From positions 8,250 to 72,249 of IMG/VR virus record IMGVR_UViG_3300048793_000029: a stretch of 64,000 nt of DNA; one strand, given 5' to 3'. The DNA comes from a virus. This document shows, one piece after another, positions 30,185-56,628 of the stretch. Within the stretch, counting starts at the first letter, position 1, and each line of letters starts with the position of its first letter. The notes below the pieces were generated by a model. The model did not search any database. It worked only from the letters and a program-made list of their open reading frames with translations, and had not been told where the DNA came from. The translations under genes were made by a program, and so were the position numbers.

Positions 30185-30757
30185 ATGAAAAAGATAATTA
30201 CTGCCATCGTGCTAGCTTGTGCTTGGCTGTTGGCGCCGCTGCCGGCTAATGCTGTCGTTGTAGTGTCATCCTGCTCATCGATAACGGCGGTGACGGGCTT
30301 CAGCGGTGACTTGTATATTGATACGTCAGGTAAGCTGTGTATCAATGCAAGTACCACTTCGTTGCCCCCCAACGCCGCCCAGGAAACCGGCGGCAATCTC
30401 GCGGCGATCTTGTCGGCTATTCAATCACCGCTTGCTGGTGTTTCCGAATCGCATAGCGCAGCGGCGGAATCATCGCGGGTTGCCAAAAACTCCGCTGGTA
30501 ACGTAATCAGCATATCCGGCTCTGCCGCTGCCGGTTCCTACATCATGCTTTTCGATCTTACTGCCGCACCTAGCAATGGTGGTGTGACACCGAAGAAATG
30601 CTGGGGACCGATGGCATCGAGTGGACCGTTTTCGTTTTCATGGGGTGTCGGGCCAACCCTTACGATGGCGACCGGGATAACGGTCGTCTCTAGCTCAACC
30701 GGCTGCTTCACGCAGACATTAACCAACGCCAACTTCATCAGCGTGGAGTATCAGTAA
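30185..30757 (+). CDS. exported protein (signal peptide, 4 Cys)
   Basis: MKKIITAIVLACAWLLAPLPANA| signal peptide. Confidence 0.75.
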   Translation: MKKIITAIVLACAWLLAPLPANAVVVVSSCSSITAVTGFSGDLYIDTSGKLCINASTTSLPPNAAQETGGNLAAILSAIQSPLAGVSESHSAAAESSRVAKNSAGNVISISGSAAAGSYIMLFDLTAAPSNGGVTPKKCWGPMASSGPFSFSWGVGPTLTMATGITVVSSSTGCFTQTLTNANFISVEYQ

Positions 30758-31602
30758 TGAAAAAGATTTTAGCTCTTATCGCTGGGCTGCTGCTTGTTTC
30801 GGCTGCTTACGCGCAGAACTCATCCTCCACTCCTAAATATGCGCCGAATAGCGTTGTCTTTACTTACAACGATGGCGTTCATTGTACTAATTCTGTTTGT
30901 ACCTTTCCTATTCCGGCCAACGTCAGTATTATTTATATCGATGGCGTTGGCGCTGGCGGCCCTGGCGGTGGCGGTCAGGTTACTTCCGGCGCTGGTGGAG
31001 GTGGTGGTGGCTCAGGCGAAGAGGTTACTGGACTCCCGCTGCCGGTAACTCCTGGGGCAACTCTCACTATCACCATCCCAGTAACAACGTCAGGAGGTGC
31101 TATTGCTGGTGTTGGCACAGACCCGGCTGCGCTCACCATAACTTCATCCCCAAGTCTAGCCGTTCCTTTTCCATCACTCGGTGCTGGCATCCACGGATTA
31201 GCCGGGGCTGCTACTGTTGGCGGGACTGGCGGCGCGGGCGGTGGCCCTGGCGGTGTCGCTGGCGGCGCTGCAAACGTAGCTGGTGGCAATGCATCTAATA
31301 CCGGACGGTCAACTTATTACAAGACAGGAAACGGCGGCGGCGGCGGCGGCAGCACAGCATCAACTCCAGGCTTTGGCGGAACCTCTGGCGCTTACATTAC
31401 ACTCGGCGCTGGGGCATTAGGAAATGCTGGCGGCGGCCTAGGAGGCAATGCTCAATTTGGTCCCGGCGGCGCAGGCGGCGGCGGCACTACTCCCTCGGTA
31501 GGCTTGGCTCCCGCAAGCGGGTTCGGCGGTGGCGGTGGTGGTGGTGGCCAGAATAATGCTGGCGGGGCCGGAGGTCCGGCTTTTGTCCAGATCAGGTATT
31601 AA
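30757..31602 (+). CDS. exported glycine-rich fibre-type protein
   Basis: MKKILALIAGLLLVSAAYA| followed by a phage Gly-rich domain (F.IP..V..I.I..VGAGG.GG...VTPG...V.IRY). Confidence 0.8.
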   Translation: MKKILALIAGLLLVSAAYAQNSSSTPKYAPNSVVFTYNDGVHCTNSVCTFPIPANVSIIYIDGVGAGGPGGGGQVTSGAGGGGGGSGEEVTGLPLPVTPGATLTITIPVTTSGGAIAGVGTDPAALTITSSPSLAVPFPSLGAGIHGLAGAATVGGTGGAGGGPGGVAGGAANVAGGNASNTGRSTYYKTGNGGGGGGSTASTPGFGGTSGAYITLGAGALGNAGGGLGGNAQFGPGGAGGGGTTPSVGLAPASGFGGGGGGGGQNNAGGAGGPAFVQIRY

Positions 31603-31604
31603 GC

Positions 31605-32972
31605 ATGATCTGGCGCGTTCTAATTATCTTGCTCTGTGCCGGTATTGTTTCCGGTTGGCGAGTTGGCAGCAATCTTTCCGTTGCTACGTTCTCGCCCGAC
31701 GCGACTTCGTTTCTTAATCCTGAACGCGGTTGGTATGGCGACATAGGGGACGGCAGTACGCCATGCACCGCAGCGACTAATTTTTCCAGTTATCGTGGCA
31801 ACAACAAGGGAATGTCTCGCGTCTATGTTCGATTGGACGCTTATGTTTCTAGCCCGTTGCCTCAATCAATTCTGGATAACCTGACCGGCTGCTTTGCCCA
31901 AATCAGGTCAGCCGGAATTAAAGTTGAACCTAGATTTACTTATAATTTCGGCGGCGGTGCGCCGTGTACCGACGCAACGCTAACGCAGATATTGGCTCAC
32001 ATAGCCCAGCTCACTCCGGTGTTGCAGGCCAACATCGACGTGATTGCGTTTCTTCACGCCGGGTTCATTGGCTGTTGGGGCCAGTGGTGGGGATCAGCAA
32101 ATACCCTGAATACGAACCAAAGCGCAACGCAGCAAATTCTCGCCGCCGAATTGGCGATTGATCCTAATTTAGTGGTGATGATCCCATATCCAGACAGCGT
32201 GCGATATGCTCTCGGTGCAGCAAACATTCAAACGCGCGTCGGCATCGCTAATGATTGTTTTCAATCAACCAACAACTCAGATGACGATGAATTTGGCAGA
32301 TTGAACGGTGTTGACCAAACCGGCCAGCCTGGATATGCCGCGCAAATAACAACTGACCGCACCTACATGCAAACGCTCGGCGGCATTACAAACGCCAACG
32401 GCGGCGAGGGTCAGCCGAGTTGCCCTTATACGGCGGTCTATAGCGATTGCGCTGCGTCCATTGCGGCAATGCAGACCTATTCAATTTCATACTTTGCTGT
32501 TTTTGCATCGTTACATCCTTCGACATGGGCGTCTGATTCTGGAAATTGTGCCGCTACGATGCAAGATTCGATGGGCTACCGCCTAGAATTGCAGCGCGTG
32601 CAATATCCAGCCAGCATAAGCAAAGGCAGCCTATTCAGTTTCAATCTTGCGCTGGTCAATCGAGGCTACGCAGGCCCGATCAATCAGCACCCGATCAATG
32701 CGGTGCTGTCGGACGGCACGCATACTTATGTGCTGTCATCGTCAATCGACTGGCGGACGTGGCGTCCTGGATCGGGAATATCCGCATGGGGCCAAGCGAC
32801 GGTGCCGAGCGGTGCCGTGTCCGGCACCTACTCGCTCTATCTATGGATACCGGACAGCCACGCCAGTCTGCAAAGTAATCCACTCTATGACGTTCGCCTC
32901 GCCAACTCAGGCGTATGGGACGGAACCACCGGCTACAACAAGATTTGCGATACCTGCGTGACGGTGCATTGA
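31605..32972 (+). CDS. exported DUF4874/DUF4832 glycoside-hydrolase-like protein
   Basis: NPERGW, RF.Y, AGFIG.WG.W, NDCF, GGE, MGYRL motifs; hydrophobic N-terminus. Confidence 0.78.
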   Translation: MIWRVLIILLCAGIVSGWRVGSNLSVATFSPDATSFLNPERGWYGDIGDGSTPCTAATNFSSYRGNNKGMSRVYVRLDAYVSSPLPQSILDNLTGCFAQIRSAGIKVEPRFTYNFGGGAPCTDATLTQILAHIAQLTPVLQANIDVIAFLHAGFIGCWGQWWGSANTLNTNQSATQQILAAELAIDPNLVVMIPYPDSVRYALGAANIQTRVGIANDCFQSTNNSDDDEFGRLNGVDQTGQPGYAAQITTDRTYMQTLGGITNANGGEGQPSCPYTAVYSDCAASIAAMQTYSISYFAVFASLHPSTWASDSGNCAATMQDSMGYRLELQRVQYPASISKGSLFSFNLALVNRGYAGPINQHPINAVLSDGTHTYVLSSSIDWRTWRPGSGISAWGQATVPSGAVSGTYSLYLWIPDSHASLQSNPLYDVRLANSGVWDGTTGYNKICDTCVTVH

Positions 32973-34021
32973 TGAAAAACATCCTGCCGACATGGAAACT
33001 CTTTCTCACCGCAGGAAGCTTTCTGTTCTTCCTTGGAGCGTTTCAATCCAGCACCATCGCGTGGGTACATGGTGGCGTAAGCTACTTTTTTCCAAATGGG
33101 ATCGCAGTCACACAAAATAGTTCTTCTGGTGTCAACTATGGAGCAGGTACTGAAAACGGGTCAACAAACTCATTTATTTGGTCGGCATTAAGCACCTATA
33201 CGAGTGGCAGCACGCTGCAAAATCCCGCGACCGGCATATGCTCAGACGTGACAATATGTTTTGTCGATGCCTATGCGGTAGGGCGCGATACGGTTGACGC
33301 GAGCGCGGCATCCAATGGTTTCTTCGGTCATTTCTTTTCTCTCAATTCCGGCGGTACGGGCACTAAGGGTGGCCACCACGCGGCGCTGTTTCAGTTTCAG
33401 CTTGTTGGCGCGCCGGATGATACAAACCAATTTTATTCGGCAGTAAATACAATTTCGCAGGCTTCCGTTAGCGCAGGCGGAACGTCTGGTGCTGGCAATG
33501 GGCTTGGGCATCTTTACGGGACAAATCCTTACGCGAGGCTTACATCAGGTGCGACAAATTGGGGTCAGCTTGTCGGCACAGAAATAAATACAAGCGTTCA
33601 TACTGGCGCATCGGTCGATCAGGTGATCGGCCAACAGATTGTCCAAGACACCCTCGATGTTGTTTCTGGCAATCAGGTTGATATCGGAATTTCTCTCAAC
33701 AACCAAGCGATCAAGGCTTCGGTAGCCGGTTGGGATATTCTCTTTGCTGACGGTTCTTATCCCGGTTATTCGTCGCTGAAAACCACCGGCACTATTTTCA
33801 AATGTTATCTGCACGCCAACAGCGGTAACTGCGGAACAATCGCGAACGGTTTCGATATGACGAACTACACTTTAACCGGCGCACCAATCCTAGCTCCGCT
33901 TAAAACTCCGTCCAGTTCGTCTGATACCTGCACCCAAGGCGCGCAGGAATGGGATGCCAGTTACGTCTATATCTGCACAGCGACGAATACATGGAAGCGC
34001 GCGGCGCTGAGTACATTCTAG
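32972..34021 (+). CDS. exported fibre-type protein
   Basis: Signal-peptide-like N-terminus; C-terminal P.SSS.T...G...WD..Y.YIC.ATNTWKR.AL motif typical of phage fibre proteins. Confidence 0.72.
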   Translation: MKNILPTWKLFLTAGSFLFFLGAFQSSTIAWVHGGVSYFFPNGIAVTQNSSSGVNYGAGTENGSTNSFIWSALSTYTSGSTLQNPATGICSDVTICFVDAYAVGRDTVDASAASNGFFGHFFSLNSGGTGTKGGHHAALFQFQLVGAPDDTNQFYSAVNTISQASVSAGGTSGAGNGLGHLYGTNPYARLTSGATNWGQLVGTEINTSVHTGASVDQVIGQQIVQDTLDVVSGNQVDIGISLNNQAIKASVAGWDILFADGSYPGYSSLKTTGTIFKCYLHANSGNCGTIANGFDMTNYTLTGAPILAPLKTPSSSSDTCTQGAQEWDASYVYICTATNTWKRAALSTF

Positions 34022-34064
34022 GCATCCCGCTGATCGACCCGAACAGGAAGCCGCCGGAGATTAA

Positions 34065-34262: not shown

Positions 34263-34328
34263 TGCATGAGCTACAGCTTTCCGCTGCACCCGCGGCGCTA
34301 TGACCGTGTCGGGTCGAGAGAAAAACTA

Positions 34329-35054
34329 ATGACAGTGCCTCTGATTATCATGGTTGGCTCCGATAAGGGTGGCGTTGGCAAGACCACCGTTACCCGGTCG
34401 CTGATCGACTATCTGGCCTCGACTGGCGTTTCTGGCCGGGCGTTCGACTCGGAGAACCCGGCTGGCGGCCTGGCGCGCTTTGTGCCGTCGGCCAAGGTCG
34501 TCGATATGGCCCGCGTCGAGGATCAGATGGAGATGTTCGACGTCGCCTCCGGCGTCACCGTCATCGACGTACGGGCCGGCATGCTGTCCAAGAGCCTTGC
34601 TACGCTAGAGCAGGCCCACTTGCTCGATGACGTTCAGACCGGCGCCGTCGGTCTGGTTCTGATGCATGTGCTGGGACCAAGTGTTCAATCGCTAGGCGAG
34701 GTTTCGGCGGCTGCCGCCAGGATCGGTGGTGGCTCGCGGCATATACTAGTCAAGAACCACATCAGTGATGTCACCGGCGGTTACTTCGAATGGGACGGCG
34801 CTGACAGCAAGTTCGCCGCGGTGTTAGCCCAGATGGAGCCGCAGACCGTGGTAGTGCCGCACTTGGCCGAGCGGGCTTGTGAGACTGTTGACAAGCTCGG
34901 CGTCGGCTTTACCGACTTCTGCCGCGACGCCGGTCAGTCGCGCATGCTACGCGGCTACGTGCGGACGTGGTTGACGTCGACTTGGGCCGACTTTGATAAG
35001 GTGGGTTTGGGTGGGTTGGCGAAGAGCGCGTGCGCTCCGAAGGAGGGATCGTAA
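34329..35054 (+). CDS. ParA/MinD-type P-loop NTPase
   Basis: Deviant Walker A DKGGVGKTT; AFDSE; VIDVRAG. Start 34329 or 34266. Confidence 0.8.
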   Translation: MTVPLIIMVGSDKGGVGKTTVTRSLIDYLASTGVSGRAFDSENPAGGLARFVPSAKVVDMARVEDQMEMFDVASGVTVIDVRAGMLSKSLATLEQAHLLDDVQTGAVGLVLMHVLGPSVQSLGEVSAAAARIGGGSRHILVKNHISDVTGGYFEWDGADSKFAAVLAQMEPQTVVVPHLAERACETVDKLGVGFTDFCRDAGQSRMLRGYVRTWLTSTWADFDKVGLGGLAKSACAPKEGS

Positions 35055-36478
35055 TGCCACAGATAGATTCCTTCGCCTTCGACCGCGCCAGTGTGCGCCG
35101 TACCGACGACGACGGTCGGCTGCATGTTGAGATAACAAATATTTCAAAATCGAATGTGTGTCCCTATCTTGGCTCTGAAATCCCTGACTGGGAAGAGATG
35201 GGCCTCAAGCGCGACAAGGTCTATCAGCTGCTGCGCGACCCGGCTGAACTGCGCAAGGCCGCGCCTTCATTCAATAATTTACCGCTACTTAGCGAGCACG
35301 TCCCGGTCAACGCGCAAGATCACCAGCCTGATTTAGTGATCGGCTCCACCGGTACCGATGCTGAGTTTGCGGAGCCTTATCTGCGCAACAGCCTGGTGCT
35401 ATGGGCGAAGGATTTCATTGACGCGGTGGAGTCCGGCACTCAGAAAGAACTTTCGTCCGCCTACCGCTACCGGGCCGATATGACGCCCGGCAACTACAAC
35501 GGAGCAGAATACGACGGCGTGATGCGCGACATCATCGGCAATCACGTCGCTTTGGTAAGGGAAGGGAGAGCCGGCAGTGATGTCATTGTCGGAGATTCGG
35601 CATTACCCATAACAGAGGAGATCATCCAGATGGGTGTGAAACTGAGCCGCAAGGCTGCACTGGCCCAGGGAGCCCTGATGGTCTTCCTGAAGCCGAAGAT
35701 GGCACAAGACGCCAAGATTGACCTCGCGTCAGTACTCAAGGGCGTCACGGCCAAGAACTACGTCGAGAGCAAGCCGGCAATCTTCGCCGGCATCGCCAAG
35801 CTGCTCGACGGCAAGCTGGCCAAGGACGCCAAGCTTGAGGACGTCCACGGCTTCCTCGATTCGCTTGACAGGGAAGAGCCTGCCGGCGACGAAGAGCCGG
35901 AGAAAAAGGACGAGCCGGCCAAGGACGAAGAAAAAGACGAAGTCAAGAAGCCCGCTGAGGACGAGGACGACACGGCAATGGACGCCGAGGGCGTCAAAAA
36001 CTTCCTTAAGGACAAGATCTCCGAAGACGATATGAAGGCGCTCGACGCACTCATGTCCGGAGCCAAGGACGCAGACGAGCCTACTCCCGTCAAGGAGCCG
36101 GCCAAAGACGAGGAGAAGGAAGAAATGGTGCCGAAGAAGGCAATGGACGCGGCGATCAAGTCGGCGATCAAGGTCGCTGCCGATACCGCCACCAAGACCC
36201 AGAAGGACATCCGCGAGGCCGAGAACTTCGTGCGGCCGTGGGTGGGCAATATCGCCATGGCGCACGACAGCGCCGAAGGCGTCTACCGCACTGCGCTTGG
36301 TGCGCTCGGCAAGAAGGATGTCGATCAGATCCATCCTGCCGCGCTCAAGCACGTCCTTGAAGCTCAACCCAAGCCCAACGAGAAGAAGCCGGCGGCTGAG
36401 CACCTCGCGATGGATGCGGCCTCCGTCGACAGCTTCAACAAGCGTTTCCCCGGTGCCGCTCGCATCGGACAGGCATAA
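35054..36478 (+). CDS. prohead protease / scaffold (DUF2213 type)
   Basis: ISK.NV.PY.G.EIP, ELSSAYRY, GNHVALV..GRAG; acidic scaffold-like C-terminus. Confidence 0.88.
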   Translation: MPQIDSFAFDRASVRRTDDDGRLHVEITNISKSNVCPYLGSEIPDWEEMGLKRDKVYQLLRDPAELRKAAPSFNNLPLLSEHVPVNAQDHQPDLVIGSTGTDAEFAEPYLRNSLVLWAKDFIDAVESGTQKELSSAYRYRADMTPGNYNGAEYDGVMRDIIGNHVALVREGRAGSDVIVGDSALPITEEIIQMGVKLSRKAALAQGALMVFLKPKMAQDAKIDLASVLKGVTAKNYVESKPAIFAGIAKLLDGKLAKDAKLEDVHGFLDSLDREEPAGDEEPEKKDEPAKDEEKDEVKKPAEDEDDTAMDAEGVKNFLKDKISEDDMKALDALMSGAKDADEPTPVKEPAKDEEKEEMVPKKAMDAAIKSAIKVAADTATKTQKDIREAENFVRPWVGNIAMAHDSAEGVYRTALGALGKKDVDQIHPAALKHVLEAQPKPNEKKPAAEHLAMDAASVDSFNKRFPGAARIGQA

Positions 36479-36490
36479 GGAGATATCAAC

Positions 36491-37480
36491 ATGAGTGGCG
36501 GTTTCCAAACTTCCGTTACCACCCTTCCGGCACTTGGCGTTGCGGGCGACTTCGCCAGCGCCAATCCGTACTTCAGCTACGACGCCGGCCCTGGCGGACT
36601 CGTGGCTGGTGCCAACGGTCTTACTGTTGGCCGCTTCGCCTGGGTTGCCCCGTATCCTCTCGATGCGGACAACGCCGGCCAAGTAGCCAACAACAACGGC
36701 ATCGGCCAAGTTGCCGGTTTCGTGCATCGCTCTCAGCGAGCGTTGATCACTACTTATCTTGCCGATGCGTCGATGGTGGTTCCGGCCGGCCTTGATGTCT
36801 CGCTGATGACTGGTGGTGACTTCCTCATGAAGAACGACGGCACCGCCGACGCCTTGATGGGGCAGAAAGCTTACGCCGACCTCGCCACTGGCAAGGTGAC
36901 GTTTGCGGCCACCGCCAGCCCAACCGCGGGGGCCACCTCGACGGCTGCCTCGATTGCGGCCGGTTCGGCCTCGGTCACTGGTTCCATCTCTGGCAACATC
37001 CTGACGGTCAGCACGATCGGCAGCGGCAAGTTGGTGGTTGGTGCCACTATCGCCGGTTCCGCAGGTTCGGCGGGCGGCGTGGCGGTTGCCACCGGCACGC
37101 AGATCGTCAGTCAGTTAACTGGCGGAACCTCCGGTTCGGTTGGTACCTACACTGTCAGCATCGGCGAACAGAACGTCACCTCAACGACTATCACCGAGAC
37201 TTACGGTACGTTGACTGTGGGTGGTTCGCTCACCGGCACGTTAGCCGTTGGTCAGAGCATCGCTGGTACCGATGGCACGACCACGACAAGCGCTACGACT
37301 ACTTGGATCACGGCGCTCGGTACTGGAGCAGGTGGCTCCGGCACCTATATCGTCAACAAGACACAGACTCTCAACTCGACTTCAATTACGGCCTACGGAA
37401 ATGTTGAGACGAAGTGGATCGCCATGTCCAGCGGCGCACCGGGCGAGCTGGTCAAAACTTCCAGCCATCCGCTCGGTTAA
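36491..37480 (+). CDS. capsid decoration / cement protein with inserted beta domains
   Basis: GFQT.V...PA.GVAGDFAS.NP N-terminus; lies between protease and major capsid protein. Confidence 0.75.
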   Translation: MSGGFQTSVTTLPALGVAGDFASANPYFSYDAGPGGLVAGANGLTVGRFAWVAPYPLDADNAGQVANNNGIGQVAGFVHRSQRALITTYLADASMVVPAGLDVSLMTGGDFLMKNDGTADALMGQKAYADLATGKVTFAATASPTAGATSTAASIAAGSASVTGSISGNILTVSTIGSGKLVVGATIAGSAGSAGGVAVATGTQIVSQLTGGTSGSVGTYTVSIGEQNVTSTTITETYGTLTVGGSLTGTLAVGQSIAGTDGTTTTSATTTWITALGTGAGGSGTYIVNKTQTLNSTSITAYGNVETKWIAMSSGAPGELVKTSSHPLG

Positions 37481-40942: not shown

Positions 40943-41326
40943 GTGGATCTTCGCTCTATAGCCGGAAGCGTCATAACGGCGGTTAACCCGGATATCTTCG
41001 CTACTGTTATGTCGTCTACCGGCTACACGATCGCTCCCGACGGCAAACAGACGCCGGCTTACAACACAGTTACCGAAGTTCCGGTGCAGGTTCAAAGCTT
41101 GTCGTTTAGGGACCTGATGCAGGTCGAGGGCCTCAACCTCAACGGCGAGAAGCGGGCCATCTACATCAAGGGCAAGCTCGACGGTACGGTGCGCGTCGCT
41201 GGCAAGGGCGGTGATTTGATTGTCATCAATAATGGGACAAGCATTGGCACTTGGTTAGTGGTTCAGTCCCTCGAACAGTGGCCTGACTGGTGCAAAGTGG
41301 CAGTCGTACTCCAGGATGGCTCGTGA
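40943..41326 (+). CDS. head closure protein
   Basis: L..IA...I.AVNP, QVQ.L, GGDL, WLVV..LE.WPDWCK. Confidence 0.78.
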   Translation: MDLRSIAGSVITAVNPDIFATVMSSTGYTIAPDGKQTPAYNTVTEVPVQVQSLSFRDLMQVEGLNLNGEKRAIYIKGKLDGTVRVAGKGGDLIVINNGTSIGTWLVVQSLEQWPDWCKVAVVLQDGS

Positions 41327-42060
41327 CTATATTGCTGACTCCTACCGAAGACGACGCCATCATGGCGCTGCGCTCCTTTATGAGTAGCGTGCTGCCGAGC
41401 AGCGTTGACGTGATCCGTGGCCAGATCAACCGCGTACCGGAGCCGGCAGACAGCGATTTCATTGTCATGTGGCCGATCATGCGCCGCCGCCTGGAGACCA
41501 ACGTCGACCAGTTCGTTGATACCAAGAGTGTCGGTTCCATCGCCGGCAACCTGATGACGGTGACCGGGCTCAGCTACGGCAGTTTGCAAGTAGGCTCCGT
41601 GGTGTTTAGTGTGGTCGGCGGCACCGGAGCGGTGTTCTCGGTGCAGTCGCAGGTGTCTGGCTCGGTCGGTGGCACTGGGGTCTACAGCGTGGCGCCCAGC
41701 GGTTCGGTCGGCGGTGGCGTGCTGGCAGCTGGCGTGCTCAACGCGCTGGCGCCAACTGAGCTTACGATTCAGTTGGATGTTCACGGGCCGAATGGCGGAG
41801 ATAACGCGCAGATTGTGAGTACGATGTTGCGCGACGATTTTGCTTGCCAAGCCTTCAAGGTTCTCAACGTTGGTGTAGTGCCACTGTACGCCAACGATCC
41901 AAAGCAGATCACGTTTCAAAACGAGAACCAGCAAATCGAAGAGCGGTGGATTGTGGAAGCCTGCTTCCAGGTGAACACCACCGTCAATGATATCCCGCAG
42001 CAATTCTTTGACTCCATCACCGTCGAGCGGGTGCCCGCCGACATCGAGTTCCCCGCATGA
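41323..42060 (+). CDS. tail terminator-like protein with inserted beta domain
   Basis: GQ.NRVPEP, QLDVHGP, LRD, PLYA.DP, Q.E.RW; precedes the sheath gene. Confidence 0.75.
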   Translation: MTILLTPTEDDAIMALRSFMSSVLPSSVDVIRGQINRVPEPADSDFIVMWPIMRRRLETNVDQFVDTKSVGSIAGNLMTVTGLSYGSLQVGSVVFSVVGGTGAVFSVQSQVSGSVGGTGVYSVAPSGSVGGGVLAAGVLNALAPTELTIQLDVHGPNGGDNAQIVSTMLRDDFACQAFKVLNVGVVPLYANDPKQITFQNENQQIEERWIVEACFQVNTTVNDIPQQFFDSITVERVPADIEFPA

Positions 42061-44672: not shown

Positions 44673-46531
44673 TGGCAACTATCATCGACGAATTGGTAGT
44701 GCAACTTGGCCTCGACCCTACGAAGTTTGTCGAGGGCGGCCACGTCACGGTTGCTGAGTATAAGAAGCTTGTCGAGGGCATTGATAAGCACAGTAAAGAT
44801 GCGGTCAAGTCAGTCAAGACCGTAGAGGACGGCTTCACCAAGGTCACCAGAGCCATCGGTGAGATGACTGCCGGCTACTTGACTGTTACCGGCATCAGTA
44901 GCTTCATCCAGCAAACTAACGCCACCAATGTTGCGGTCGGCCAGTTGGCGACGACGCTCGGCCTGATGCCGGATAAGATCGCTCAATATACGGAGGCCGC
45001 GCGGCGGGCTAATATCAATCCGCAGTCGATGACGTCAGCCCTCAACACGCTGAACATGCGGGCGGGCGCTGCCAAGCAGGGGCAGGACTCTGCACTCTTC
45101 GACCCGTTGGCAAGGCTCGGTGTTAACCCGAATGTGGTGTGGTCAAACGACCCCACTACTATGTTGCGTGGTATCGCGTCAGCGGCGCAGAAACAGATTG
45201 CCGGTGGCCGGCCGCTCGATGAGGTTAACGCCAACCTGGCCGCTATTGGATTGAACGGCGACCTGATCTATATGATCGATCGGTCGGACAAGAAGCTCAA
45301 GGAATTCTTTGAGGACGCCGAGAAGCTCCATGCAACAACGAACGCCCAGATCGAATCTTCCACGAGGCTGCTGAGTGCCTGGAACGAGTTCGTCCCGATC
45401 CTCACTAAGCTCGGTAACTCTATCGCTAAGGACCTCGACGGGCCGCTGGGTTGGCTCGTGAAAACCATGGGCGGCGTTAACGACCACATGGAGGCGTTCA
45501 AACACCTTCTCGAAGAGATCGGCGGCCTGCTGATCGGGACGTCTTTAGGCGCGGCCATCGGCGGTATCATTGGATTCTTCAGCCCCGTCCCAGGCGGCAT
45601 GGCCATAGGTGCCGGCATCGGTGCGCGTATCGGCGCGGGCGTCGGATTATTGGGTGGCGCGGGCCTTGCGGCTAGCAGTCCTCCAGACCCGAACCTTGCC
45701 GCGGCGCCAAAAGGCGGCAGCAACGCGGTAGCTCCGGCTGGAGGCACAGCTCCTGCTCCGGGAGCTGGAGGTACTGGCTTAACTACCTTGCAAGCGGATC
45801 GTGCGAGATTTGCAGAGGAATTGAGGCTCAATCCTGGTTTGAAGGACGAACTCTTTAAGCATGCTACTGGCGAAAACAATGACCCGCTTGCAAATAAGAT
45901 TATCATGGAAACGGCAATGAACCGCGCTTCGCAGCGGCACACTTCGTTAGCTGCACAGCTTGGCTATTTTCAGGGTTATCGAGGCTATGATTCTAAGCAT
46001 GCAGCAATGATGGAACAAAACCTCAAAAGTGTGCTTAGCGGCTCAAACGAGGGCCTTGGTGCAACAGATAACTCATCCGGTGGATTGGCCGAGCGCGAGA
46101 AAGCAAGCGGCAAATTTATACATCGACGCACGGTTAACGGTGAGTCTTTCTTCATTCCTGGCTCGGCTGAAAAAGGATTACAAAGAAGTTACGGCCCATG
46201 GGCAGCGCAGCGTGGTCTAGATCCTACCACTGGATTAGCGTTACCCAGCGCTGCTGCTCCCGTTCCTGCTCAGGCTGCTCCAGCCAGCGGCAGCAACGCC
46301 GTCGTTCCTGCTGTCCCCGCTGAGGAGGGCTGGGGCCATTGGCTAGGCCGGCACATGCCAAGTTTCTTGTCGCCGTCATCGTCGTCCACCACCAACAACA
46401 AGCAATCGTCGTTGAGCATCGGCAACATGAACTTCCACGGCGTGCGTGATATGAAAGACGTGGCGGACAACATTCAGCCGTTCATCGCAAACCGCTTCTC
46501 GGCCGTCGCGGCGGATACCGGCTATGGTTGA
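44672..46531 (+). CDS. tape measure protein
   Basis: MATIIDELVV.LGLD start, helical Ala-rich body, Gly-rich hydrophobic segment; position after the chaperone. Confidence 0.85.
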   Translation: MATIIDELVVQLGLDPTKFVEGGHVTVAEYKKLVEGIDKHSKDAVKSVKTVEDGFTKVTRAIGEMTAGYLTVTGISSFIQQTNATNVAVGQLATTLGLMPDKIAQYTEAARRANINPQSMTSALNTLNMRAGAAKQGQDSALFDPLARLGVNPNVVWSNDPTTMLRGIASAAQKQIAGGRPLDEVNANLAAIGLNGDLIYMIDRSDKKLKEFFEDAEKLHATTNAQIESSTRLLSAWNEFVPILTKLGNSIAKDLDGPLGWLVKTMGGVNDHMEAFKHLLEEIGGLLIGTSLGAAIGGIIGFFSPVPGGMAIGAGIGARIGAGVGLLGGAGLAASSPPDPNLAAAPKGGSNAVAPAGGTAPAPGAGGTGLTTLQADRARFAEELRLNPGLKDELFKHATGENNDPLANKIIMETAMNRASQRHTSLAAQLGYFQGYRGYDSKHAAMMEQNLKSVLSGSNEGLGATDNSSGGLAEREKASGKFIHRRTVNGESFFIPGSAEKGLQRSYGPWAAQRGLDPTTGLALPSAAAPVPAQAAPASGSNAVVPAVPAEEGWGHWLGRHMPSFLSPSSSSTTNNKQSSLSIGNMNFHGVRDMKDVADNIQPFIANRFSAVAADTGYG

Positions 46532-47749: not shown

Positions 47750-48343
47750 ATGATTAGGTACTGGAAAGGCACTATAGCCATATTGTTAACATTGGCGGCT
47801 GTCAGTGCTGCCATTGCCGCGAGCGGCACCATCACGGTCAAGGACGGGAACGGTGTAGCGCGCACGTATGCCGTAGTGACGGACGGGTCTGGAAACTACG
47901 TCGCTATGAACGTGATATGCGACTATTCGTCGGCAGCGAATTGCGCGACGGTTAATAGCTCGCACCAACTCAGTGTCGTTGCTTCATCTGACCCCTGCAT
48001 GTCAGCGGCCAAGACAAACCTATCTATCGATAGCAACACAACGGCCCTCACGCAACTTATCGCCGCATCTGGTTCTACTCAAATTTATATCTGTTCGGTT
48101 TTGATTGTATCTAATGGAACAACTATCACTTTCAACACTGGTACTGGCACCAATTGCGGCACCGGCACTGCTGGACTAATTGGCGGAACGACAGTTGGCC
48201 ACTCGATGACTCTTGCAAATAGCAATTTGACCTACGGCAACGGGTTGGGAACCGTAGCTGTCACTGGCGTCGGAGGCGAAGTCTGTATGGCGCTCGGTTC
48301 GTCCGTCTATGTTGCCGGTAATATGACCTACGTGCAGCAGTAG
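47750..48343 (+). CDS. exported beta-rich protein (signal peptide, 6 Cys)
   Basis: AGAGGA RBS; MIRYWKGTIAILLTLAAVSAAIA|. Confidence 0.72.
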   Translation: MIRYWKGTIAILLTLAAVSAAIAASGTITVKDGNGVARTYAVVTDGSGNYVAMNVICDYSSAANCATVNSSHQLSVVASSDPCMSAAKTNLSIDSNTTALTQLIAASGSTQIYICSVLIVSNGTTITFNTGTGTNCGTGTAGLIGGTTVGHSMTLANSNLTYGNGLGTVAVTGVGGEVCMALGSSVYVAGNMTYVQQ

Positions 48344-50258: not shown

Positions 50259-51695
50259 ATGACGAACGTGCCGCCACCGACCTTCGGCCCACGAGGGTTC
50301 ATTGCCCCTCTAGAGTCGCAGATACTCGCCGGCTTTCAGGCCGACATCAACGCTGCTTTCGGTGGCAATCTGAATACAGCACTCAATACGCCGCAGGGTC
50401 AGTTGGCCTCGTCGATGGCTGCCGTTACTGGCAACGCTATGGACACTTTCGCGCTAATGGCCAACTCTGTTGATCCGGCCTACGCCACCGGCCGCTACCA
50501 GGACGGCATCGCTCGCATCTACTTCATTGAGCGAATACCTTCGTCGTCCACTGTGGTGCTGGCAACTTGCTCAGGGTTGACGGGAACGCTGATCCCAGTA
50601 GGTTCGCTGGCGCAAGCCGCTGACGGCAATACCTACACTAGTACCGCCGACGGCATTATTGGCGTCAATGGTACGGTCGATATATCGTTTGCCTGCAACG
50701 TGCAGGGCAGTATCTCTTGTCCCGCAAACAGTCTGACGACCATCTACCAAACCGTGCTGGGTTGGGATTCCATCACCAACGCCTCGGATGGCGTCATCGG
50801 CAACGACGTGGAGAACCGCGCCGACTTCGAGAACCGCCGCTTCCAGTCGGTGGCGCACAACTCACTAGGTTTCCTGCCGTCGGTGTTGGGTGCGGTACTG
50901 TCGGTGCCAAACGTAGTTGACGCCTACGTGACGGAGAACGCCACAGGCTCCCCTATCATCGTTACCGGCGTCACCATCGCAGCTCGTTCGATCTACGTGT
51001 CGGCGGCCGGTGGGTTGGCGGCCGATATAGCGCAGGCGCTGTGGCAGAAGAAGGCCCCCGGCTGTGGTTACAACGGCAACACCACGGTCACGGTATACGA
51101 CAACCAATCCGGCTACGACCCACCATACCCAGCCTACCCAGTATCGTTTGAGACGCCAGACCCGCTCGACGTCTTATTCTCTGTAAACATCGTCAACGGC
51201 GTGCTGGTGCCGTCAAATGCGGCGACTCAAATACAAAGTGCCATCATCGCAGCCTTCGCTGGCGAGGACGGCGGCCAGCGCGCTCGCATCGGTTCGATCA
51301 TCTACGCCTCCAGGTTCTACGCTTCGGTGGCGGCATTAGGCCCGTGGGCGCAGATCGTTGCCATTGACATCGGTTCAGCCAACACGCCGGCTGCTTCCAT
51401 CGTCGGCAGCATTAGCGGTCTTACGCTGACGGTGACCAGTTGCACCGCAGCGACCATCGCCAATAATCAATTCTTATCCGGCAGCGCTGGCGGCAGCAGC
51501 GTGGCTATCGGTACCCAGATTGTCGGGCAGGTATCCGGGTCGACCGGCGGCACCGGCACCTATACGGTGAGCATTACGCAAATCGTGCCGTCGATGGCGA
51601 TGGCTACAGCGACCGCCAACCAGAACTCGGTTGCGGTACAGATCAATCAGGTACCGACAGTGTCGGCTCTCGATATCGTGGTTAACACGTCCTAG
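50259..51695 (+). CDS. baseplate J-like protein
   Basis: AFGG.LN....TPQGQ, DP..A.GR.QD.I.RIYF, E.R..FE.RR. Confidence 0.88.
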   Translation: MTNVPPPTFGPRGFIAPLESQILAGFQADINAAFGGNLNTALNTPQGQLASSMAAVTGNAMDTFALMANSVDPAYATGRYQDGIARIYFIERIPSSSTVVLATCSGLTGTLIPVGSLAQAADGNTYTSTADGIIGVNGTVDISFACNVQGSISCPANSLTTIYQTVLGWDSITNASDGVIGNDVENRADFENRRFQSVAHNSLGFLPSVLGAVLSVPNVVDAYVTENATGSPIIVTGVTIAARSIYVSAAGGLAADIAQALWQKKAPGCGYNGNTTVTVYDNQSGYDPPYPAYPVSFETPDPLDVLFSVNIVNGVLVPSNAATQIQSAIIAAFAGEDGGQRARIGSIIYASRFYASVAALGPWAQIVAIDIGSANTPAASIVGSISGLTLTVTSCTAATIANNQFLSGSAGGSSVAIGTQIVGQVSGSTGGTGTYTVSITQIVPSMAMATATANQNSVAVQINQVPTVSALDIVVNTS

Positions 51696-51697
51696 CC

Positions 51698-52408: not shown

Positions 52409-52414
52409 AGGAAG

Positions 52415-53542: not shown

Positions 53543-53547
53543 ATACG

Positions 53548-53901
53548 ATGAAACGTATTGTTGTCGGCCTCCTCATTGCCGTGTTGCCATTCGCTGCGGT
53601 GGCGCAGCAGGTGTGGATCGCAAGTGAGAGCGAGACCTACGATCAAAACACCGACATCGGCAAAGCGATGCAGATTTGCCACCAGTATCTTCATACTGTA
53701 ATTGGGATACAACCGAAGAATGGCTGGCGCGCACAATATGATACGGCGCCGGATTCTAATGGCGTGCCGCGTTGGCAAACTTGTGACGCGGTGCGAACGC
53801 AATGGCAGGCAAGTGGCGTGGCCGCAGCAGCCAAGCAGAAGACAGAAGATGATTTTATCTCTGGTTTTGTGGTGAAGCTCCAGCAGCCGCTTCCGAAGTA
53901 A
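53548..53901 (+). CDS. exported protein (2 Cys)
   Basis: MKRIVVGLLIAVLPFAAVA|. Confidence 0.65.
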   Translation: MKRIVVGLLIAVLPFAAVAQQVWIASESETYDQNTDIGKAMQICHQYLHTVIGIQPKNGWRAQYDTAPDSNGVPRWQTCDAVRTQWQASGVAAAAKQKTEDDFISGFVVKLQQPLPK

Positions 53902-53924
53902 GCAGCGAACGCAGGAAAACCAAA

Positions 53925-54152
53925 ATGATCCGAGCATTTACTATCGCACTCGGCCTCGCAGTGGCTACAGCAGCAAATGCCCAACAGCTAGCGCCGCAGA
54001 CAATGGTTCGGCAACTCATAGCGAATGATGCCAATATCAAAGCTGCGCTGGCTATCGAACTCGACAAGGCCAACGCGCGGATCGCGGCACTTATAGCCGA
54101 GAACGAGGCGTTGAAGAAGGCGCAGGGCAAGACAGAAGCGAAGAAGCCTTAA
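53925..54152 (+). CDS. small exported coiled-coil protein
   Basis: MIRAFTIALGLAVATAANA|. Confidence 0.65.
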   Translation: MIRAFTIALGLAVATAANAQQLAPQTMVRQLIANDANIKAALAIELDKANARIAALIAENEALKKAQGKTEAKKP

Positions 54153-54817: not shown

Positions 54818-54830
54818 GAAACAACTAGCC

Positions 54831-56261
54831 ATGATCTCCAGTAATATTCCGACAAAGTTTTCCATTCCGTTCGCCAACAGCGCGACCGGCGCCTACATCA
54901 CGAAGCCGATCCCGGTGCCGTCGCAGATTGGCATTGGTGCCGGTCGCGCCTCGTTCACCGATGGCTTCCCGCCGCTTACCTTCACGCAGCTTGCGGCCGG
55001 CGGTGATCCGCCGTGGGGTGCCGACTTCAACGGCCTATTGAACGAGATAACGTCCTGGCTGGTGTGGGTGGCGGCCGGCGGGGCTCCAGTGGCTTACGAC
55101 GTCGCCTTCTCAACAGCGATCGGCGGCTATCCCAGCGGGGCCTTCCTGCAATCAACCCCGCCAGGTCACTACTGGATTTCCACAGCCGACAACAACGCTA
55201 CCGACCCCGATACTGGCGGCGCTGGTTGGTCCATCTTCCCTGATATTTTGATTCAGCAACAGGCCGGAAATTATGCAGCGGTCGATTCCGGTGCAGTGAA
55301 TCACGTCGCTGTCACGCTATCGCCGGTGCCGGCATCGCTGACCTCGATTGTTGGCTCGCCGATTCGCTTCTTGATCGCCAACGCCAACACCATCACGACG
55401 CCGACCATCAATATTAATGGTCTCGGCGCCGTAACGATGATCAATACCGACGGCTCTTCTATCGTTATTGGTCAGTTCTCTCGCGCTGGCCAGATGTGCG
55501 AAGGCTACTTAACCAGCCCGACTGTGTTTCAGGTTACTACCCCCGGTAAGCCGGCATCGGGCGGCGGTGGAGGAGCGGCTGGCGGCGTGCCGACCGGCGG
55601 CATCATCTTGTGCCCGGTGGAAATCCCGTTGCCGGGTTTCCTGGAGTGTGATGGTTCGACCAAAAACATCTCTGCCTATCCAAACCTGTTCAACGTTATC
55701 AAGGCGACCTACGGCGGCGACGGCATCAATACCTTCAAGGTACCGGACCTGCGTGGCGCCTTCGCGCGCGGTTGGGACCACGGACGCGGACTTGACCCCA
55801 GCGCTTCAACTCGCACCAACCGCGGCGACGGCACCACTGGCGATCATGTAGGTACCTGGGAAGCCCAAGCAAACGGTCCGTATTCATCATCGGTCAGCAT
55901 TGCAAATCCGCAGGTGAATTGGCCGGCATTTTCAAACCTTGCAGGCTCTCATACTTGGCCTGGGGGCACGGCAAATTTTCTTCTTGGCCAGGATGTAGCC
56001 GAGTTTGATGTCTACGGCCAAACGAATTATGGCTTCACGGGGGATACTCTTCCGAACAACAGCGTCACGATCAACCCGCCGCAGTACCCATTGGGCGGTT
56101 CACCACAGGTGGTGACCCTTCCTTCGACGAATAGCCAGAACGGCATCAATTTCTTCGGTCCAGGCGGCGTTTACATCACTTCCTTAACCGGCACCATCAC
56201 ACTCAGCGGCCCGGAGACGCGCCCTGTGAATATAAATCTTATGTATATAATTGCATACTGA
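54831..56261 (+). CDS. tail fibre with collar domain
   Basis: AS..DGFPP.T.....GG.PP.G.D.NG, IGGYP.GA; collar motif L.CDG......YP.LF.VI...YG...F.VPDLRG.F.RG.D; ETRP.N. Confidence 0.88.
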   Translation: MISSNIPTKFSIPFANSATGAYITKPIPVPSQIGIGAGRASFTDGFPPLTFTQLAAGGDPPWGADFNGLLNEITSWLVWVAAGGAPVAYDVAFSTAIGGYPSGAFLQSTPPGHYWISTADNNATDPDTGGAGWSIFPDILIQQQAGNYAAVDSGAVNHVAVTLSPVPASLTSIVGSPIRFLIANANTITTPTININGLGAVTMINTDGSSIVIGQFSRAGQMCEGYLTSPTVFQVTTPGKPASGGGGGAAGGVPTGGIILCPVEIPLPGFLECDGSTKNISAYPNLFNVIKATYGGDGINTFKVPDLRGAFARGWDHGRGLDPSASTRTNRGDGTTGDHVGTWEAQANGPYSSSVSIANPQVNWPAFSNLAGSHTWPGGTANFLLGQDVAEFDVYGQTNYGFTGDTLPNNSVTINPPQYPLGGSPQVVTLPSTNSQNGINFFGPGGVYITSLTGTITLSGPETRPVNINLMYIIAY

Positions 56262-56268
56262 GGAAGCC

Positions 56269-56628
56269 ATGAAAAAGCTGCTACTCGCCCTCTTACTACT
56301 CTACCCTGCTGCCGCACTGGCGCAGTCGGCACCAAATTTCTACCAAGGCTTCGTACCGAGCGCGGCGCAGTGGAAGCAATACTTTGCCGGAAAATGGGAT
56401 TACCCTGGTTACACCGCGCTCAACAAGGGTGGTGACAACATGCAGGGCTTGTTGGGCATTGCCCCCTCACTCATAGCCTCGCTGCCAACCTGCGTGGCCA
56501 CGCTGGCAGGCGAGCTTGCCTATGTCACCAACGGCGTTGCCTCGCCTAGCTACAACGCGACCGTCAGCACGACAGGCTCGTCGAATCAACTAGTGTGGTG
56601 TAACGGGGCTAATTGGACTTATCATTGA
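56269..56628 (+). CDS. exported small fibre-module protein (2 Cys)
   Basis: GAGGA RBS; MKKLLLALLLLYPAAALA|; ASLP.C....GELAYVT...WCNG.NW. Confidence 0.72.
   Translation: MKKLLLALLLLYPAAALAQSAPNFYQGFVPSAAQWKQYFAGKWDYPGYTALNKGGDNMQGLLGIAPSLIASLPTCVATLAGELAYVTNGVASPSYNATVSTTGSSNQLVWCNGANWTYH

What the first reader, a model, noticed from the sequence alone, without database searches (positions are those of the whole stretch)
30185..56628. Family of signal-peptide-bearing, Cys-paired fibre-type proteins inserted in the virion operons
Seen: nine genes inside the head, baseplate and fibre operons (starts 30185, 30757, 31605, 32972, 47750, 52415, 53548, 53925, 56269) begin with Sec-like signal peptides (basic, hydrophobic, mostly AxA). 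Cys counts in the predicted mature chains are 4, 2, 10, 6, 6, 8, 2, 0 and 2, all even. Several carry modules typical of virion fibres: a Gly-rich domain, a WD..Y.YIC..TNTW tail, an S74 chaperone and an 'LP...G..A.VT...G.NW' module. Established: tailed-phage virions assemble in the reducing cytoplasm, and fibre proteins normally lack signal peptides. Inference: the phage exports receptor-binding or decoration subunits for oxidative folding in the periplasm and loads them on particles at lysis. Alternatively they act as cell-surface adhesins or soluble decoys. This is my best candidate for an undescribed system in the window.
Basis: partly seen in the sequence, partly recalled or inferred. Interest (0 to 1): 0.9.

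Follow-up and report, generated by a model that had tools for sequence, protein, structure and literature searches.

The report
Phage fibre-like proteins carrying export signals
A 72-kb contractile-tailed phage from peat puts bacterial secretion signals and paired cysteines on nine proteins encoded among its head, baseplate and fibre genes, so these fibre-like and sugar-cutting proteins very probably fold outside the cytoplasm where the particle is built; whether they then join the particle is unknown.

Summary
All nine genes start with a basic, hydrophobic, AxA-type N-terminus. A simple rule of mine flags 11 of 99 ORFs of the 72,249-bp phage genome, these nine among them. Mature cysteine counts are 4,2,10,6,6,8,2,0,2.

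Export is well supported:
- The leader is kept in homologues: 36 of 38 complete relatives of 47750.
- In two unrelated C-terminal fibre modules, an extra cysteine that completes a pair travels with the leader (20/2 against 1/17; 8/2 against 2/62).

The genes are accessory. Relatives lack them. A sister phage about 98-99% identical in the flanks carries a different leader-bearing cassette at 30361-34022.

One gene (31605) has the domain pair of an exported exopolysaccharide hydrolase. Another (52415) ends in an S74 chaperone.

I read them as Sec-exported, disulfide-bonded glycan-binding or glycan-cutting proteins built from fibre parts. Loading onto particles at lysis is neither shown nor excluded; a complete podovirus contig with a leader-bearing protein in its fibre slot keeps it open.

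This scan noted the same pattern before in other soil phages. Four literature searches found no paper describing it.

The parts
30185..30757 (+). P1, 190 aa. Leader (cut about 23), then a 36-aa conserved N-segment with 2 Cys, then a swappable C-domain with 2 Cys.
   Evidence: The sister phage keeps residues 1-55/59 at 96% but has a different C-domain. Atlas look-alike clusters are 87-100% viral and carry no Pfam family. P0012 joins a 47750-type N-module to a P1-type C-domain, read by eye.
30757..31602 (+). P2, 281 aa. Leader, then a glycine-rich protein with 2 Cys.
   Evidence: Pfam Gly_rich_2 scores 21.8, below the cut-off of 24.3. No PHROG hit and no GenBank phage match. Absent from the sister phage.
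31605..32972 (+). P3, 455 aa. Leader or signal-anchor, then DUF4874 + DUF4832 with 10 mature Cys. Candidate exported exopolysaccharide hydrolase.
   Evidence: Pfam E-values 4e-29 and 7e-32. A protein with a transmembrane helix, TIM barrel and DUF4832 domain (SIR_1591) is an active Pel-disrupting glycoside hydrolase (PMC12345266, passages). No match in GenBank phages. Absent from the sister phage.
32972..34021 (+). P4, 349 aa. Leader, then a body of unknown fold, then a 45-aa fibre C-terminal module with the leader-linked 'early' Cys. 6 Cys in all.
   Evidence: The sister phage has a 605-aa leader-bearing protein whose body is 47% identical and which ends in an S74-like region.
30361..34022 (+). 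Variable cassette: the stretch replaced by 2.6 kb of other leader-bearing genes in a sister phage whose flanks are 94-98% identical in DNA.
47750..48343 (+). P5, 197 aa. Leader, then an N-module with a Cys loop, then a C-terminal jelly-roll domain with invariant Cys136 and Cys179. Inserted between the 47286 gene and the baseplate hub.
   Evidence: 36 of 38 complete homologues carry a leader. Model. Fold matches reach only Z 8 or less, which the tool calls common. Absent at this place in L002 and phage 56.
51698..52408 (+). Leaderless 236-aa fibre-like protein that carries the same C-module as P9, with Ala in place of the first Cys. It heads the 4-gene insertion after gpJ.
   Evidence: The insertion is shown by L003 and phage 56.
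52415..53542 (+). P6, 375 aa. Leader, then an 8-Cys body, then an S74 intramolecular chaperone (SDERLK).
   Evidence: The only body homologue, P0270 (38% identical), also has a leader and S74. 84% identical, with an indel, in the sister phage.
53548..53901 (+). P7, 117 aa. Leader, 2 Cys, no known family.
   Evidence: Among viral contigs, found only in the sister phage.
53925..54152 (+). P8, 75 aa. Leader, then a helix-like Ala/Lys-rich tail. No Cys.
56269..56628 (+). P9, 119 aa. Leader, then an N-module (about residues 20-70), then a tailspike-type C-module (about 66-119) with Cys75 and Cys111. It sits directly after the tail fibre gene.

Best explanation
The nine genes encode Sec-exported proteins that fold with disulfide bonds outside the cytoplasm. 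Seven are assembled from parts also used by virion fibres and tailspikes (C-terminal knobs, an S74 trimerising chaperone, a jelly-roll tip), or are of unknown fold. One (31605) is a bacterial-type exopolysaccharide hydrolase.

They are accessory cassettes. Each group sits just downstream of a leaderless fibre gene in the late operons: 28277/29525, then P1-P4; 51698, then P6-P8; 54831, then P9. P5 lies alone before the hub. They are transcribed with the virion genes.

Inferred mechanism:
1. Late in infection they cross the inner membrane and the leader is cut.
2. Cysteine pairs are oxidised, and S74 trims P6 after trimerisation.
3. The mature proteins act on envelope or matrix glycans, as soluble or surface-held depolymerases and glycan binders.
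4. They destroy or mask receptors and loosen the exopolysaccharide around the lysing cell. Progeny then escape and are not lost on debris or on already infected cells.

Shown here: the leaders, their conservation, the leader-cysteine link, accessory status, cassette swapping and domain identities.
Inferred: the cellular target and the benefit.

I put export at about 0.85 and this non-virion role at about 0.45.
For: Leaders. Present on all nine genes and on only 2 of the other 90 ORFs. The control phage gave 3 of 65 flagged ORFs, none in virion genes.

Conservation of the leader.
- 36 of 38 complete homologues of P5.
- P0270 for P6.
- In the top 150 hits of P9, 65 start with Met and carry its C-module; 43 of them pass my rule. 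Several of the 22 that fail show a leader after a few extra residues.

Leader-cysteine covariation.
- P9 C-module, 40 distinct complete ORFs from 50 viral loci: leader with pair 20, leader without 2, no leader with pair 1, no leader without 17. Fisher p = 4e-8, not corrected for relatedness.
- P4 C-module, 74 carriers among 76 hits: 8, 2, 2, 62; p = 1e-7.

Accessory and acquired.
- Absent at these places in L002, L003 and phage 56.
- GC3 is 0.553 against 0.663 for 43 other plus-strand genes, p = 6e-4.
- The cassette is replaced in sister phage G003, while the leaderless fibres stay 98-99% identical.

Co-transcription. Gaps are -1 to 23 nt, and promoter- or terminator-like sites show no excess.

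Enzyme. P3 has DUF4874 + DUF4832. SIR_1591 (PMC12345266) gives the precedent for an extracytoplasmic DUF4832 glycoside hydrolase acting on Pel.

Loss of the leaderless N-segment. In the alignment of P4 with its closest body homologues, leaderless P0044, P0045 and P0051 have a 30-40-aa N-segment where P4, P0046 and P0047 have the leader.

Precedent for exported phage-type fibres. 21 Bdellovibrio MAT fibres have a signal peptide, and 13 end in S74 (PMC10769870).
Against: - No direct evidence of export. SignalP was not run, and there are no proteomics and no RNA data.
- No catalytic residues were checked in P3 or P6. The body folds of P4 and P6 are unknown: PDB sequence searches were empty, and the Atlas gave only weak leads of 0.83.
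- P1, P5 and P9 keep a conserved module right after the leader. In fibres, that is where the virion anchor lies.
- P1's breakpoint falls after residue 55-59, as in fibres that keep the anchor and swap the tip.
- In podovirus G046, the leader-bearing protein is the only candidate distal receptor-binding protein.
- The cassettes change while the phage's own leaderless fibres do not. That fits poorly with masking the phage's own receptor.
- Both covariation counts include related sequences.
Confidence: 0.45

Rival explanations
1. Periplasm-matured virion parts. The exported proteins are receptor-binding or decoration subunits. They fold and oxidise in the periplasm. They dock on finished particles when the holin and endolysin merge the two compartments, or just after lysis.
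For: - The fibre and tailspike modules, the S74 chaperone and their position in the virion operons.
- Conserved modules directly after the leader in P1, P5 and P9.
- Cassette swapping and an 84%-identical P6 between phages otherwise 96-100% identical. This is the pattern of host-range genes.
- G046, a 45,992-bp contig rated 100% complete, encodes a gp16-like protein, then a 214-aa protein matching only the first ~130 residues of T7-type fibre and spike families, then a 467-aa leader-bearing 8-Cys protein, then the endolysin. No other ORF looks like a spike.
- Recalled, not from a call: spike-less P22 heads take up purified tailspike in vitro.
Against: - This phage already has the complete leaderless fibre set of its relatives.
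- P4's leader replaces the N-segment of its leaderless homologues.
- P3 is an enzyme type with no match in GenBank phages.
- An HMM of the P9 N-module finds no leaderless fibre N-terminus in my loci.
- No virion proteomics exists for any relative. The Tunturi phage paper has none, and P5, P9, P3 and P2 have no match in 50,697 GenBank phages.
Confidence: 0.27
2. Cell-surface fibres or exclusion factors. The exported proteins stay on the infected cell's envelope, like Bdellovibrio MAT adhesins or the lom, cor and llp class. There they block superinfection by other phages, or stick infected cells to neighbours.
For: - The architecture of leader, conserved N-module, variable body, then tip or S74 parallels MAT fibres.
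- The position next to fibre genes is that of cor, lom and llp (recalled, not from a call).
- Rapid turnover independent of the phage's own fibres fits an arms race with competitors.
- P7 and P8 are small leader-bearing proteins without fibre modules.
Against: - No lipobox, beta-barrel or anchor domain was recognised in the nine.
- No sequence link to MAT N-domains was tested.
- The phage looks virulent: it has its own polymerase and nucleotide-modification genes according to first-reader notes, and I saw no integrase among the proteins I scanned. Long-term conversion is therefore unlikely.
Confidence: 0.18
3. No export. The hydrophobic N-termini are mis-called starts or cytoplasmic assembly helices.
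For: The source's gene caller called only the C-terminal 114 aa of 47750 (P0001). No SignalP run was possible.
Against: - Full-length homologues align through the N-module and leader of 47750.
- The 349-aa and 375-aa forms of P4 and P6 are the called genes in the database (P0042, P0269).
- Stop-start overlaps and Shine-Dalgarno-like sequences fit the stated starts.
- The leader-cysteine covariation has no explanation without export.
Confidence: 0.04

Closest known systems
Bdellovibrio bacteriovorus MAT (mosaic adhesive trimer) fibres (PMC10769870; passages read)
   Same: A Sec signal peptide followed by a conserved N-terminal domain, a phage-fibre-like trimeric body, and a variable tip (beta-sandwich, TNF-like, lectin) or an S74 chaperone with SDxxxK. 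They are exported and work outside the cytoplasm.
   Different: MAT fibres are encoded by a predatory bacterium, are about 1,000 aa long and sit on its surface. The proteins here are encoded inside a phage's virion operons, are 75-455 aa long, and have N-modules of only 35-50 aa. No sequence relationship to the MAT N-domain was tested. Its supplementary tables were not seen.
Virion tail fibres and tailspikes with the same modules (T4-type gp37 distal fibres, cyanophage structural proteins, uncultured-phage beta-helix proteins)
   Same: P6's last ~120 residues match gp37-type fibres. P4's last 45-70 residues match cyanophage structural proteins. P9's C-module matches predicted C-termini of phage beta-helix proteins.
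   Different: Those proteins have no leader, and mostly lack the cysteine that completes the pair. They start with a particle-binding segment where these start with a leader.
Leader-bearing accessory genes in tail operons: lambda lom, phi80/T1 cor, T5 llp (recalled; no call)
   Same: Secretion-signal proteins encoded beside tail-fibre genes, dispensable for the particle, acting at the envelope.
   Different: Those are an outer-membrane barrel or small lipoproteins without fibre modules, one per phage. Here there are nine, most with fibre-type modules or enzyme domains. No own promoter or terminator was detectable.
Streptococcus intermedius SIR_1591, a DUF4832 glycoside hydrolase of the Pel locus (PMC12345266; passages read)
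   Same: An N-terminal membrane or export segment, a TIM-barrel part and a DUF4832 beta-domain. It acts on an exopolysaccharide outside the cytoplasm.
   Different: SIR_1591 is bacterial and Gram-positive. Whether it has DUF4874 was not seen. P3's identity to it, its catalytic residues and its substrate are untested.
Disulfide network of Agrobacterium phage Milano (PMC10811340; abstract and passages)
   Same: A contractile-tailed phage of an alphaproteobacterium whose particle proteins are cross-linked by cysteines.
   Different: The passages I read mention no signal peptide and no periplasm.

Membership tests
Sec (signal peptidase I) signal peptide | Basic n-region, 10-15-residue hydrophobic core, small residues at -3 and -1, within the first ~35 residues | tested here: met
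   All nine pass my rule. 11 of 99 ORFs of the genome pass in all. This is my own heuristic, not SignalP.
Sec (signal peptidase I) signal peptide | Leader conserved in homologues | tested here: met
   P5: 36 of 38. P6: 1 of 1. P9 and P4 families are mixed, with leader-bearing and leaderless forms. P7 and P8 have no homologues to test.
Sec (signal peptidase I) signal peptide | Actual translocation and cleavage | not testable with these tools
   Needs fusions or N-terminal proteomics.
Peptidase_S74 intramolecular chaperone (P6) | Pfam PF13884 above the gathering score | tested here: met
   24.8 bits against a cut-off of 22, residues 288-339.
Peptidase_S74 intramolecular chaperone (P6) | Ser-Lys dyad SDxxxK (motif as given in PMC10769870) | tested here: met
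   SDERLK in the translation.
Peptidase_S74 intramolecular chaperone (P6) | Trimerisation and self-cleavage | not testable with these tools
DUF4874/DUF4832 glycoside-hydrolase-like proteins (P3) | Both Pfam domains above cut-off, in order | tested here: met
   101.7 and 111.4 bits against 30.1 and 29.2.
DUF4874/DUF4832 glycoside-hydrolase-like proteins (P3) | TIM barrel with catalytic acid residues; hydrolase activity | not tested
The PDB sequence search was empty.
Gly_rich_2 (PF21722) (P2) | Pfam gathering score | tested here: not met
   21.8 bits against 24.3. I do not file P2 under this family.
Virion tail fibre or tailspike | N-terminal particle-binding segment | tested here: not met
   PHROG tail hits cover only the C-termini of P4 and P6. 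P4's leader stands where leaderless homologues have their N-segment. The P9 N-module HMM hits no leaderless fibre.
Virion tail fibre or tailspike | Presence in purified particles | not testable with these tools
   No cultured relative with proteomics.
Moron (autonomous accessory unit) | Absent from close relatives; atypical composition | tested here: met
Moron (autonomous accessory unit) | Own promoter and terminator | tested here: inconclusive
   5 and 4 promoter-like and 9 and 10 terminator-like sites, at or below the shuffle means. These are consensus scans only.
Bdellovibrio MAT fibres | Signal peptide plus S74 or an adhesive tip | tested here: met
   P6 has S74. P5's jelly-roll tip is only a generic fold match.
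Bdellovibrio MAT fibres | Conserved ~130-aa beta-rich domain after the signal peptide | not tested
   No MAT sequence was compared.

The most novel reading that the evidence does not exclude
Some tailed phages of soil bacteria build part of their host-recognition gear in a different compartment from the particle. Fibre and spike subunits are Sec-exported, disulfide-bonded in the periplasm, and join cytoplasmic particles only when lysis merges the compartments. In this phage at least P1, P5, P6 or P9 would be such late-added parts. In podovirus G046 the only distal receptor-binding protein would be made this way.
Probability: 0.27. Interest if true: 0.92.

Novelty: new variant of a known kind. 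Interest (0 to 1): 0.72.

Why it matters
Tailed-phage particles are taken to assemble wholly in the cytoplasm, and genome annotation treats anything in a fibre operon as a cytoplasmic virion part.

Here a phage devotes nine late genes to exported, disulfide-bonded proteins made of fibre parts, and the same modules exist in leader-bearing and leaderless versions that differ by one cysteine.

- If they are free or surface-bound glycan enzymes and binders, they are a new class of phage tools for reshaping the host envelope and the soil biofilm matrix. They would also be oxidation-stable depolymerases of practical interest.
- If they join the particle, the textbook assembly route needs an exception, and host-range prediction from 'tail fibre' genes must take export into account.

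Either way, the leader-cysteine covariation gives a simple sequence test for sorting the two classes in metagenomes.

Tried and rejected
- Complex prediction. P5 (residues 25-197, alignment A6) against 46524, 47286 and the hub 48353 returned 'no answer', score 0.00. This is no evidence either way.
- RNA data. The run search listed no RNA holder, so nothing can be said on expression. Small-share runs were not used for habitat.
- Folds.
  - Foldseek of the P9 model against PDB found nothing at E <= 0.001.
  - The P5 model gave only Z <= 8.0: virus turrets, Ena endospore pili, YomS, TNF-like lectins, CBMs and a Bdellovibrio fibre tip. The tool rates that as common, so I claim only a jelly-roll sandwich.
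  - PDB sequence searches with P3, P6, P2 and profiles A5 and A7 gave nothing useful. The scFv hits of P2 are glycine linkers.
  - The Atlas gave only weak leads for the P6 body (0.83).
- Long homologues. Pfam found nothing in ten long homologues of P9. PHROG gave one hit, a C-terminal tail-fibre match of P0137.
- My idea that the P9 N-module is related to the 'LPYTFAN...' N-termini of leaderless fibres was not borne out by an HMM search of all held ORFs.
- I read 29525 first as a fibre adaptor, then (from recall) as a tail-fibre assembly protein. Neither was tested beyond its PHROG N-terminal hits.
- In-window paralogy by BLAST was mostly low-complexity noise.
- Host. Only 2 of 41 genomes related to a Roseiarcus MAG carry the P9 C-module. 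The host remains unknown. An alphaproteobacterial host is a guess from L015 and L016.
- Literature. Searches (listings and abstracts) found no paper on leader-bearing tail fibres.
The MAT list and the Milano protein tables could bear on the comparison and were not seen.

Full report
WHAT THE WINDOW IS. The window is bases 8250-72249 of a single 72,249-bp virus record. PHROG scans give a contractile-tailed phage:
- terminase 22833, portal 24668, head morphogenesis 26935
- protease 35030, major head protein 37493
- sheath 42075, tube 43599, tape measure 44672
- hub 48353, wedge 49907 and 50259
- structural protein 54152, tail fibre 54831, endolysin 56613

The same DNA, cassette junctions included, lies with 0 differences in contigs of further peat metagenome runs. 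The arrangement is therefore not an assembly artefact.

THE OBSERVATION. I had no SignalP. I wrote a rule instead: at least one Lys/Arg and no Asp/Glu before the core, a 10-residue Kyte-Doolittle mean of at least 1.9 in the first ~30 residues, and a small-x-small site behind it.
- It flags 11 of 99 ORFs of the genome: the nine, a lipobox protein at 59783 and another leader-bearing protein at 63130. It flags nothing else.
- On cultured Aeromonas phage 56, which shares the backbone, it flags 3 of 65 ORFs. All three are small membrane-like proteins outside the virion genes.
- With my cleavage guesses the mature cysteine counts are 4,2,10,6,6,8,2,0,2, or 2.03 per 100 aa. The 31 leaderless proteins of the same block have 0.75 per 100 aa, and 16 of 31 have even counts.

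The fibre-type modules are real, except that the Gly-rich match of 30757 is below Pfam's cut-off.

THE GENES ARE ACCESSORY CASSETTES.
- In relative L002 and in phage 56, the 47286 homologue abuts the hub. In L003 and phage 56, gpJ is followed at once by the 54152 homologue and the fibre. So 47750 and the block 51698-52415-53548-53925 are insertions.
- The nine have lower GC3 than 43 other plus-strand genes (0.553 against 0.663, Mann-Whitney p = 6e-4).
- They are packed with gaps of -1 to 23 nt. Promoter- or terminator-like sites show no excess. I infer that they ride on the late transcripts.
- Each group follows a leaderless fibre-type gene: 28277/29525, 51698 and 54831.

A SISTER PHAGE SWAPS THE CASSETTE. 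IMG/VR record G003 (71,920 bp, terminal repeats, rated complete) matches the flanks at 98% and 94% DNA identity. It replaces window 30361-34022 with 2.6 kb of other sequence. That stretch encodes:
- a P1 with the same first 55-59 residues but another C-domain
- a 605-aa leader-bearing protein, 47% identical to the body of P4, that ends in an S74-like region
- a 58-aa leader-bearing protein

P2 and P3 are missing.

Elsewhere most proteins are 96-100% identical. The leaderless fibre-type proteins stand at 99.3% (28277), 98.3% (51698) and 99.2% (54831). P6 is only 84% identical, with an indel. P5 is 100%, P7 97%, P8 96% and P9 97.5%. The tape measure (76%) and the protease (89%) also diverge. Part of the leader-bearing set therefore turns over faster than the phage's ordinary fibres.

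EXPORT: CONSERVATION.
- P5 has 41 database relatives. Of the 40 other than its own short form, 38 start with Met and 36 of those pass my rule. The two that fail still look leader-like.
- They share a ~115-aa C-domain with invariant Cys136 and Cys179.
- In viral contigs and two alphaproteobacterial MAGs, that domain ends leader-bearing proteins of 403-1,028 aa that sit among other leader-bearing ORFs.
- P6 has one body homologue, which also has a leader and S74.
- P9 has 802 relatives at E <= 0.001 in an exhaustive search. It is a minimal protein. Its residues 1-70 match the N-termini, and its residues ~60-119 the C-termini, of many 400-1,400-aa proteins. The eleven long ones I read start with leaders. 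Ten of them, with tailspike-like beginnings of the body, have no Pfam family, and only one has a PHROG hit.

EXPORT: THE LEADER-CYSTEINE LINK. This is the strongest result.
- The P9 C-module occurs in 50 viral loci. Among 40 distinct, untruncated ORFs: leader with both Cys 20, leader without 2, no leader with both 1, no leader with Ala, Gly or Pro at the first position 17 (Fisher p = 4e-8).
- The single exception (L047) has a leader-like N-terminus that merely lacks a basic residue.
- The phage itself holds both forms. 51698 has no leader and Ala at the first position. 56269 has a leader and Cys.
- The P4 C-module shows the same in independent sequences. Of 74 carriers among 76 hits: leader with the 'early' Cys 8, leader without 2, no leader with it 2, no leader without it 62 (p = 1e-7).
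- In the closest pair, P0048 (leader) and P0051 (no leader), the cysteine tracks the leader.
- Relatives of P1's modules show the same trend. Leader-bearing ORFs have 4-10 cysteines. Leaderless ones have 0-3, except one 1,215-aa protein with 8.
- These counts are not corrected for shared ancestry. Both classes do span very different lengths and architectures.

A cysteine that is kept only when a leader is present is what export to an oxidising compartment predicts.

WHAT THE PROTEINS ARE.
- P3 has DUF4874 + DUF4832 (E 4e-29 and 7e-32). A streptococcal protein with a transmembrane helix, a TIM barrel and DUF4832 is an active glycoside hydrolase that dissolves Pel-dependent aggregates (PMC12345266, passages). 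DUF4832 genes accompany Pel loci (bioRxiv 10.1101/768473, passages). P3 has no match in 50,697 GenBank phage records.
- P6 ends like gp37-type distal fibres, with an S74 chaperone and SDERLK.
- The P9 model is confident only in the C-module (pLDDT about 90). That module matches C-termini of predicted phage beta-helix proteins, and weakly those of EPS depolymerases.
- The P5 model gives a jelly-roll sandwich, with only generic matches.
- P1's look-alikes are viral clusters without a family.
- P7 and P8 have no relatives beyond the sister phage.

HOW IT MOST LIKELY WORKS. I commit to this reading: late-expressed, Sec-exported, disulfide-stabilised glycan enzymes and binders derived from fibre parts, acting on the envelope or matrix of the infected cell and its neighbours. 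Their effects would be receptor destruction or masking, and release from exopolysaccharide.
- For it: the phage already has its relatives' complete leaderless fibre set.
- For it: P3 is a bacterial-type enzyme.
- For it: P4's leader stands where leaderless homologues have their N-segment.
- For it: Bdellovibrio shows that phage-type S74 fibres can be made by the Sec route and work outside the cell (PMC10769870).

I give export about 0.85 and this role about 0.45.

- P1, P5 and P9 keep a conserved module right after the leader, and P1 recombines behind it as fibres do.
- Record G046 (45,992 bp, rated 100% complete) is a T7-like podovirus. A gp16-like protein is followed by a 214-aa protein that matches only the first ~130 residues of fibre and spike families. 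Then comes a 467-aa leader-bearing 8-Cys protein with the P9 C-module, then the endolysin.
- I saw no other spike-like ORF in that genome.
- That does not prove attachment. It does mean the leader-bearing protein fills the fibre slot there.

COMPARISON AND NOVELTY.
- Closest are the MAT fibres (cell-encoded), the leaderless virion fibres with the same modules, the lom/cor/llp class (recalled) and exported DUF4832 hydrolases.
- Four full-text searches gave no paper on tailed-phage fibre-type proteins with secretion signals.
- P5, P9, P3 and P2 have no tblastn match in GenBank phages.
- This scan has already reported the same pattern in other soil phages. 281 notes hold the words I searched. All eight notes shown had follow-ups with 'observation confirmed; first reading partly supported'. 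I did not check those. Their lead to the Tunturi phage paper gave no proteomic data.
- I rate this a new variant of known kinds, with a bolder reading that the evidence does not exclude.

Noticed in passing
window 29968-30168 (+): A 66-aa ORF with two hydrophobic segments (holin-like topology) sits between the leaderless 29525 gene and the first leader-bearing gene. No holin was recognised beside the endolysin at 56613.
   Followed up: no
window 59783-60094 and 63130-63621 (+): Two further leader-bearing ORFs lie outside the finding. One is a 103-aa protein with a lipobox-like LLVGGC, a possible outer spanin. The other is a 163-aa protein with an AEA|KHHH site and 5 Cys. Neither has a Pfam hit.
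   Followed up: partly
window 57162-62090 (+): Behind the endolysin lie an M15 peptidase, a PNP_UDP_1 phosphorylase-family protein, a family-2 glycosyltransferase, a calcineurin-like phosphoesterase and a PAS-domain protein.
   Followed up: partly
window 36491-37480, 41290-42060, 50259-51695: A shared ~70-110-aa segment (34-41% identity; phrog_21413 region) recurs in a minor head protein, a neck-region protein and the gpJ-like wedge protein. It may be a common surface domain.
   Followed up: no
window 44672-46531 and 35030-36478, against G003: The tape measure (76%) and the head protease (89%) are far more diverged from the sister phage than their neighbours, which are 96-100% identical.
   Followed up: no
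G046 (L022, L101, L102): A complete T7-like podovirus contig has a fibre slot that holds a 214-aa anchor-only protein followed by a 467-aa leader-bearing 8-Cys protein. It is a cleaner test case for exported receptor-binding proteins than this window.
   Followed up: partly
P0270 (homologue of 52415): The only body homologue of P6 has an extra N-terminal Cys-rich segment with a fibre-like '...NTAFV' motif. It also has a hydrophobic C-terminal tail after its S74 domain.
   Followed up: no
window 47750-48343: The source's gene caller recorded only the C-terminal 114 aa of this gene (P0001). Automatic annotation would therefore miss its leader and N-module.
   Followed up: yes
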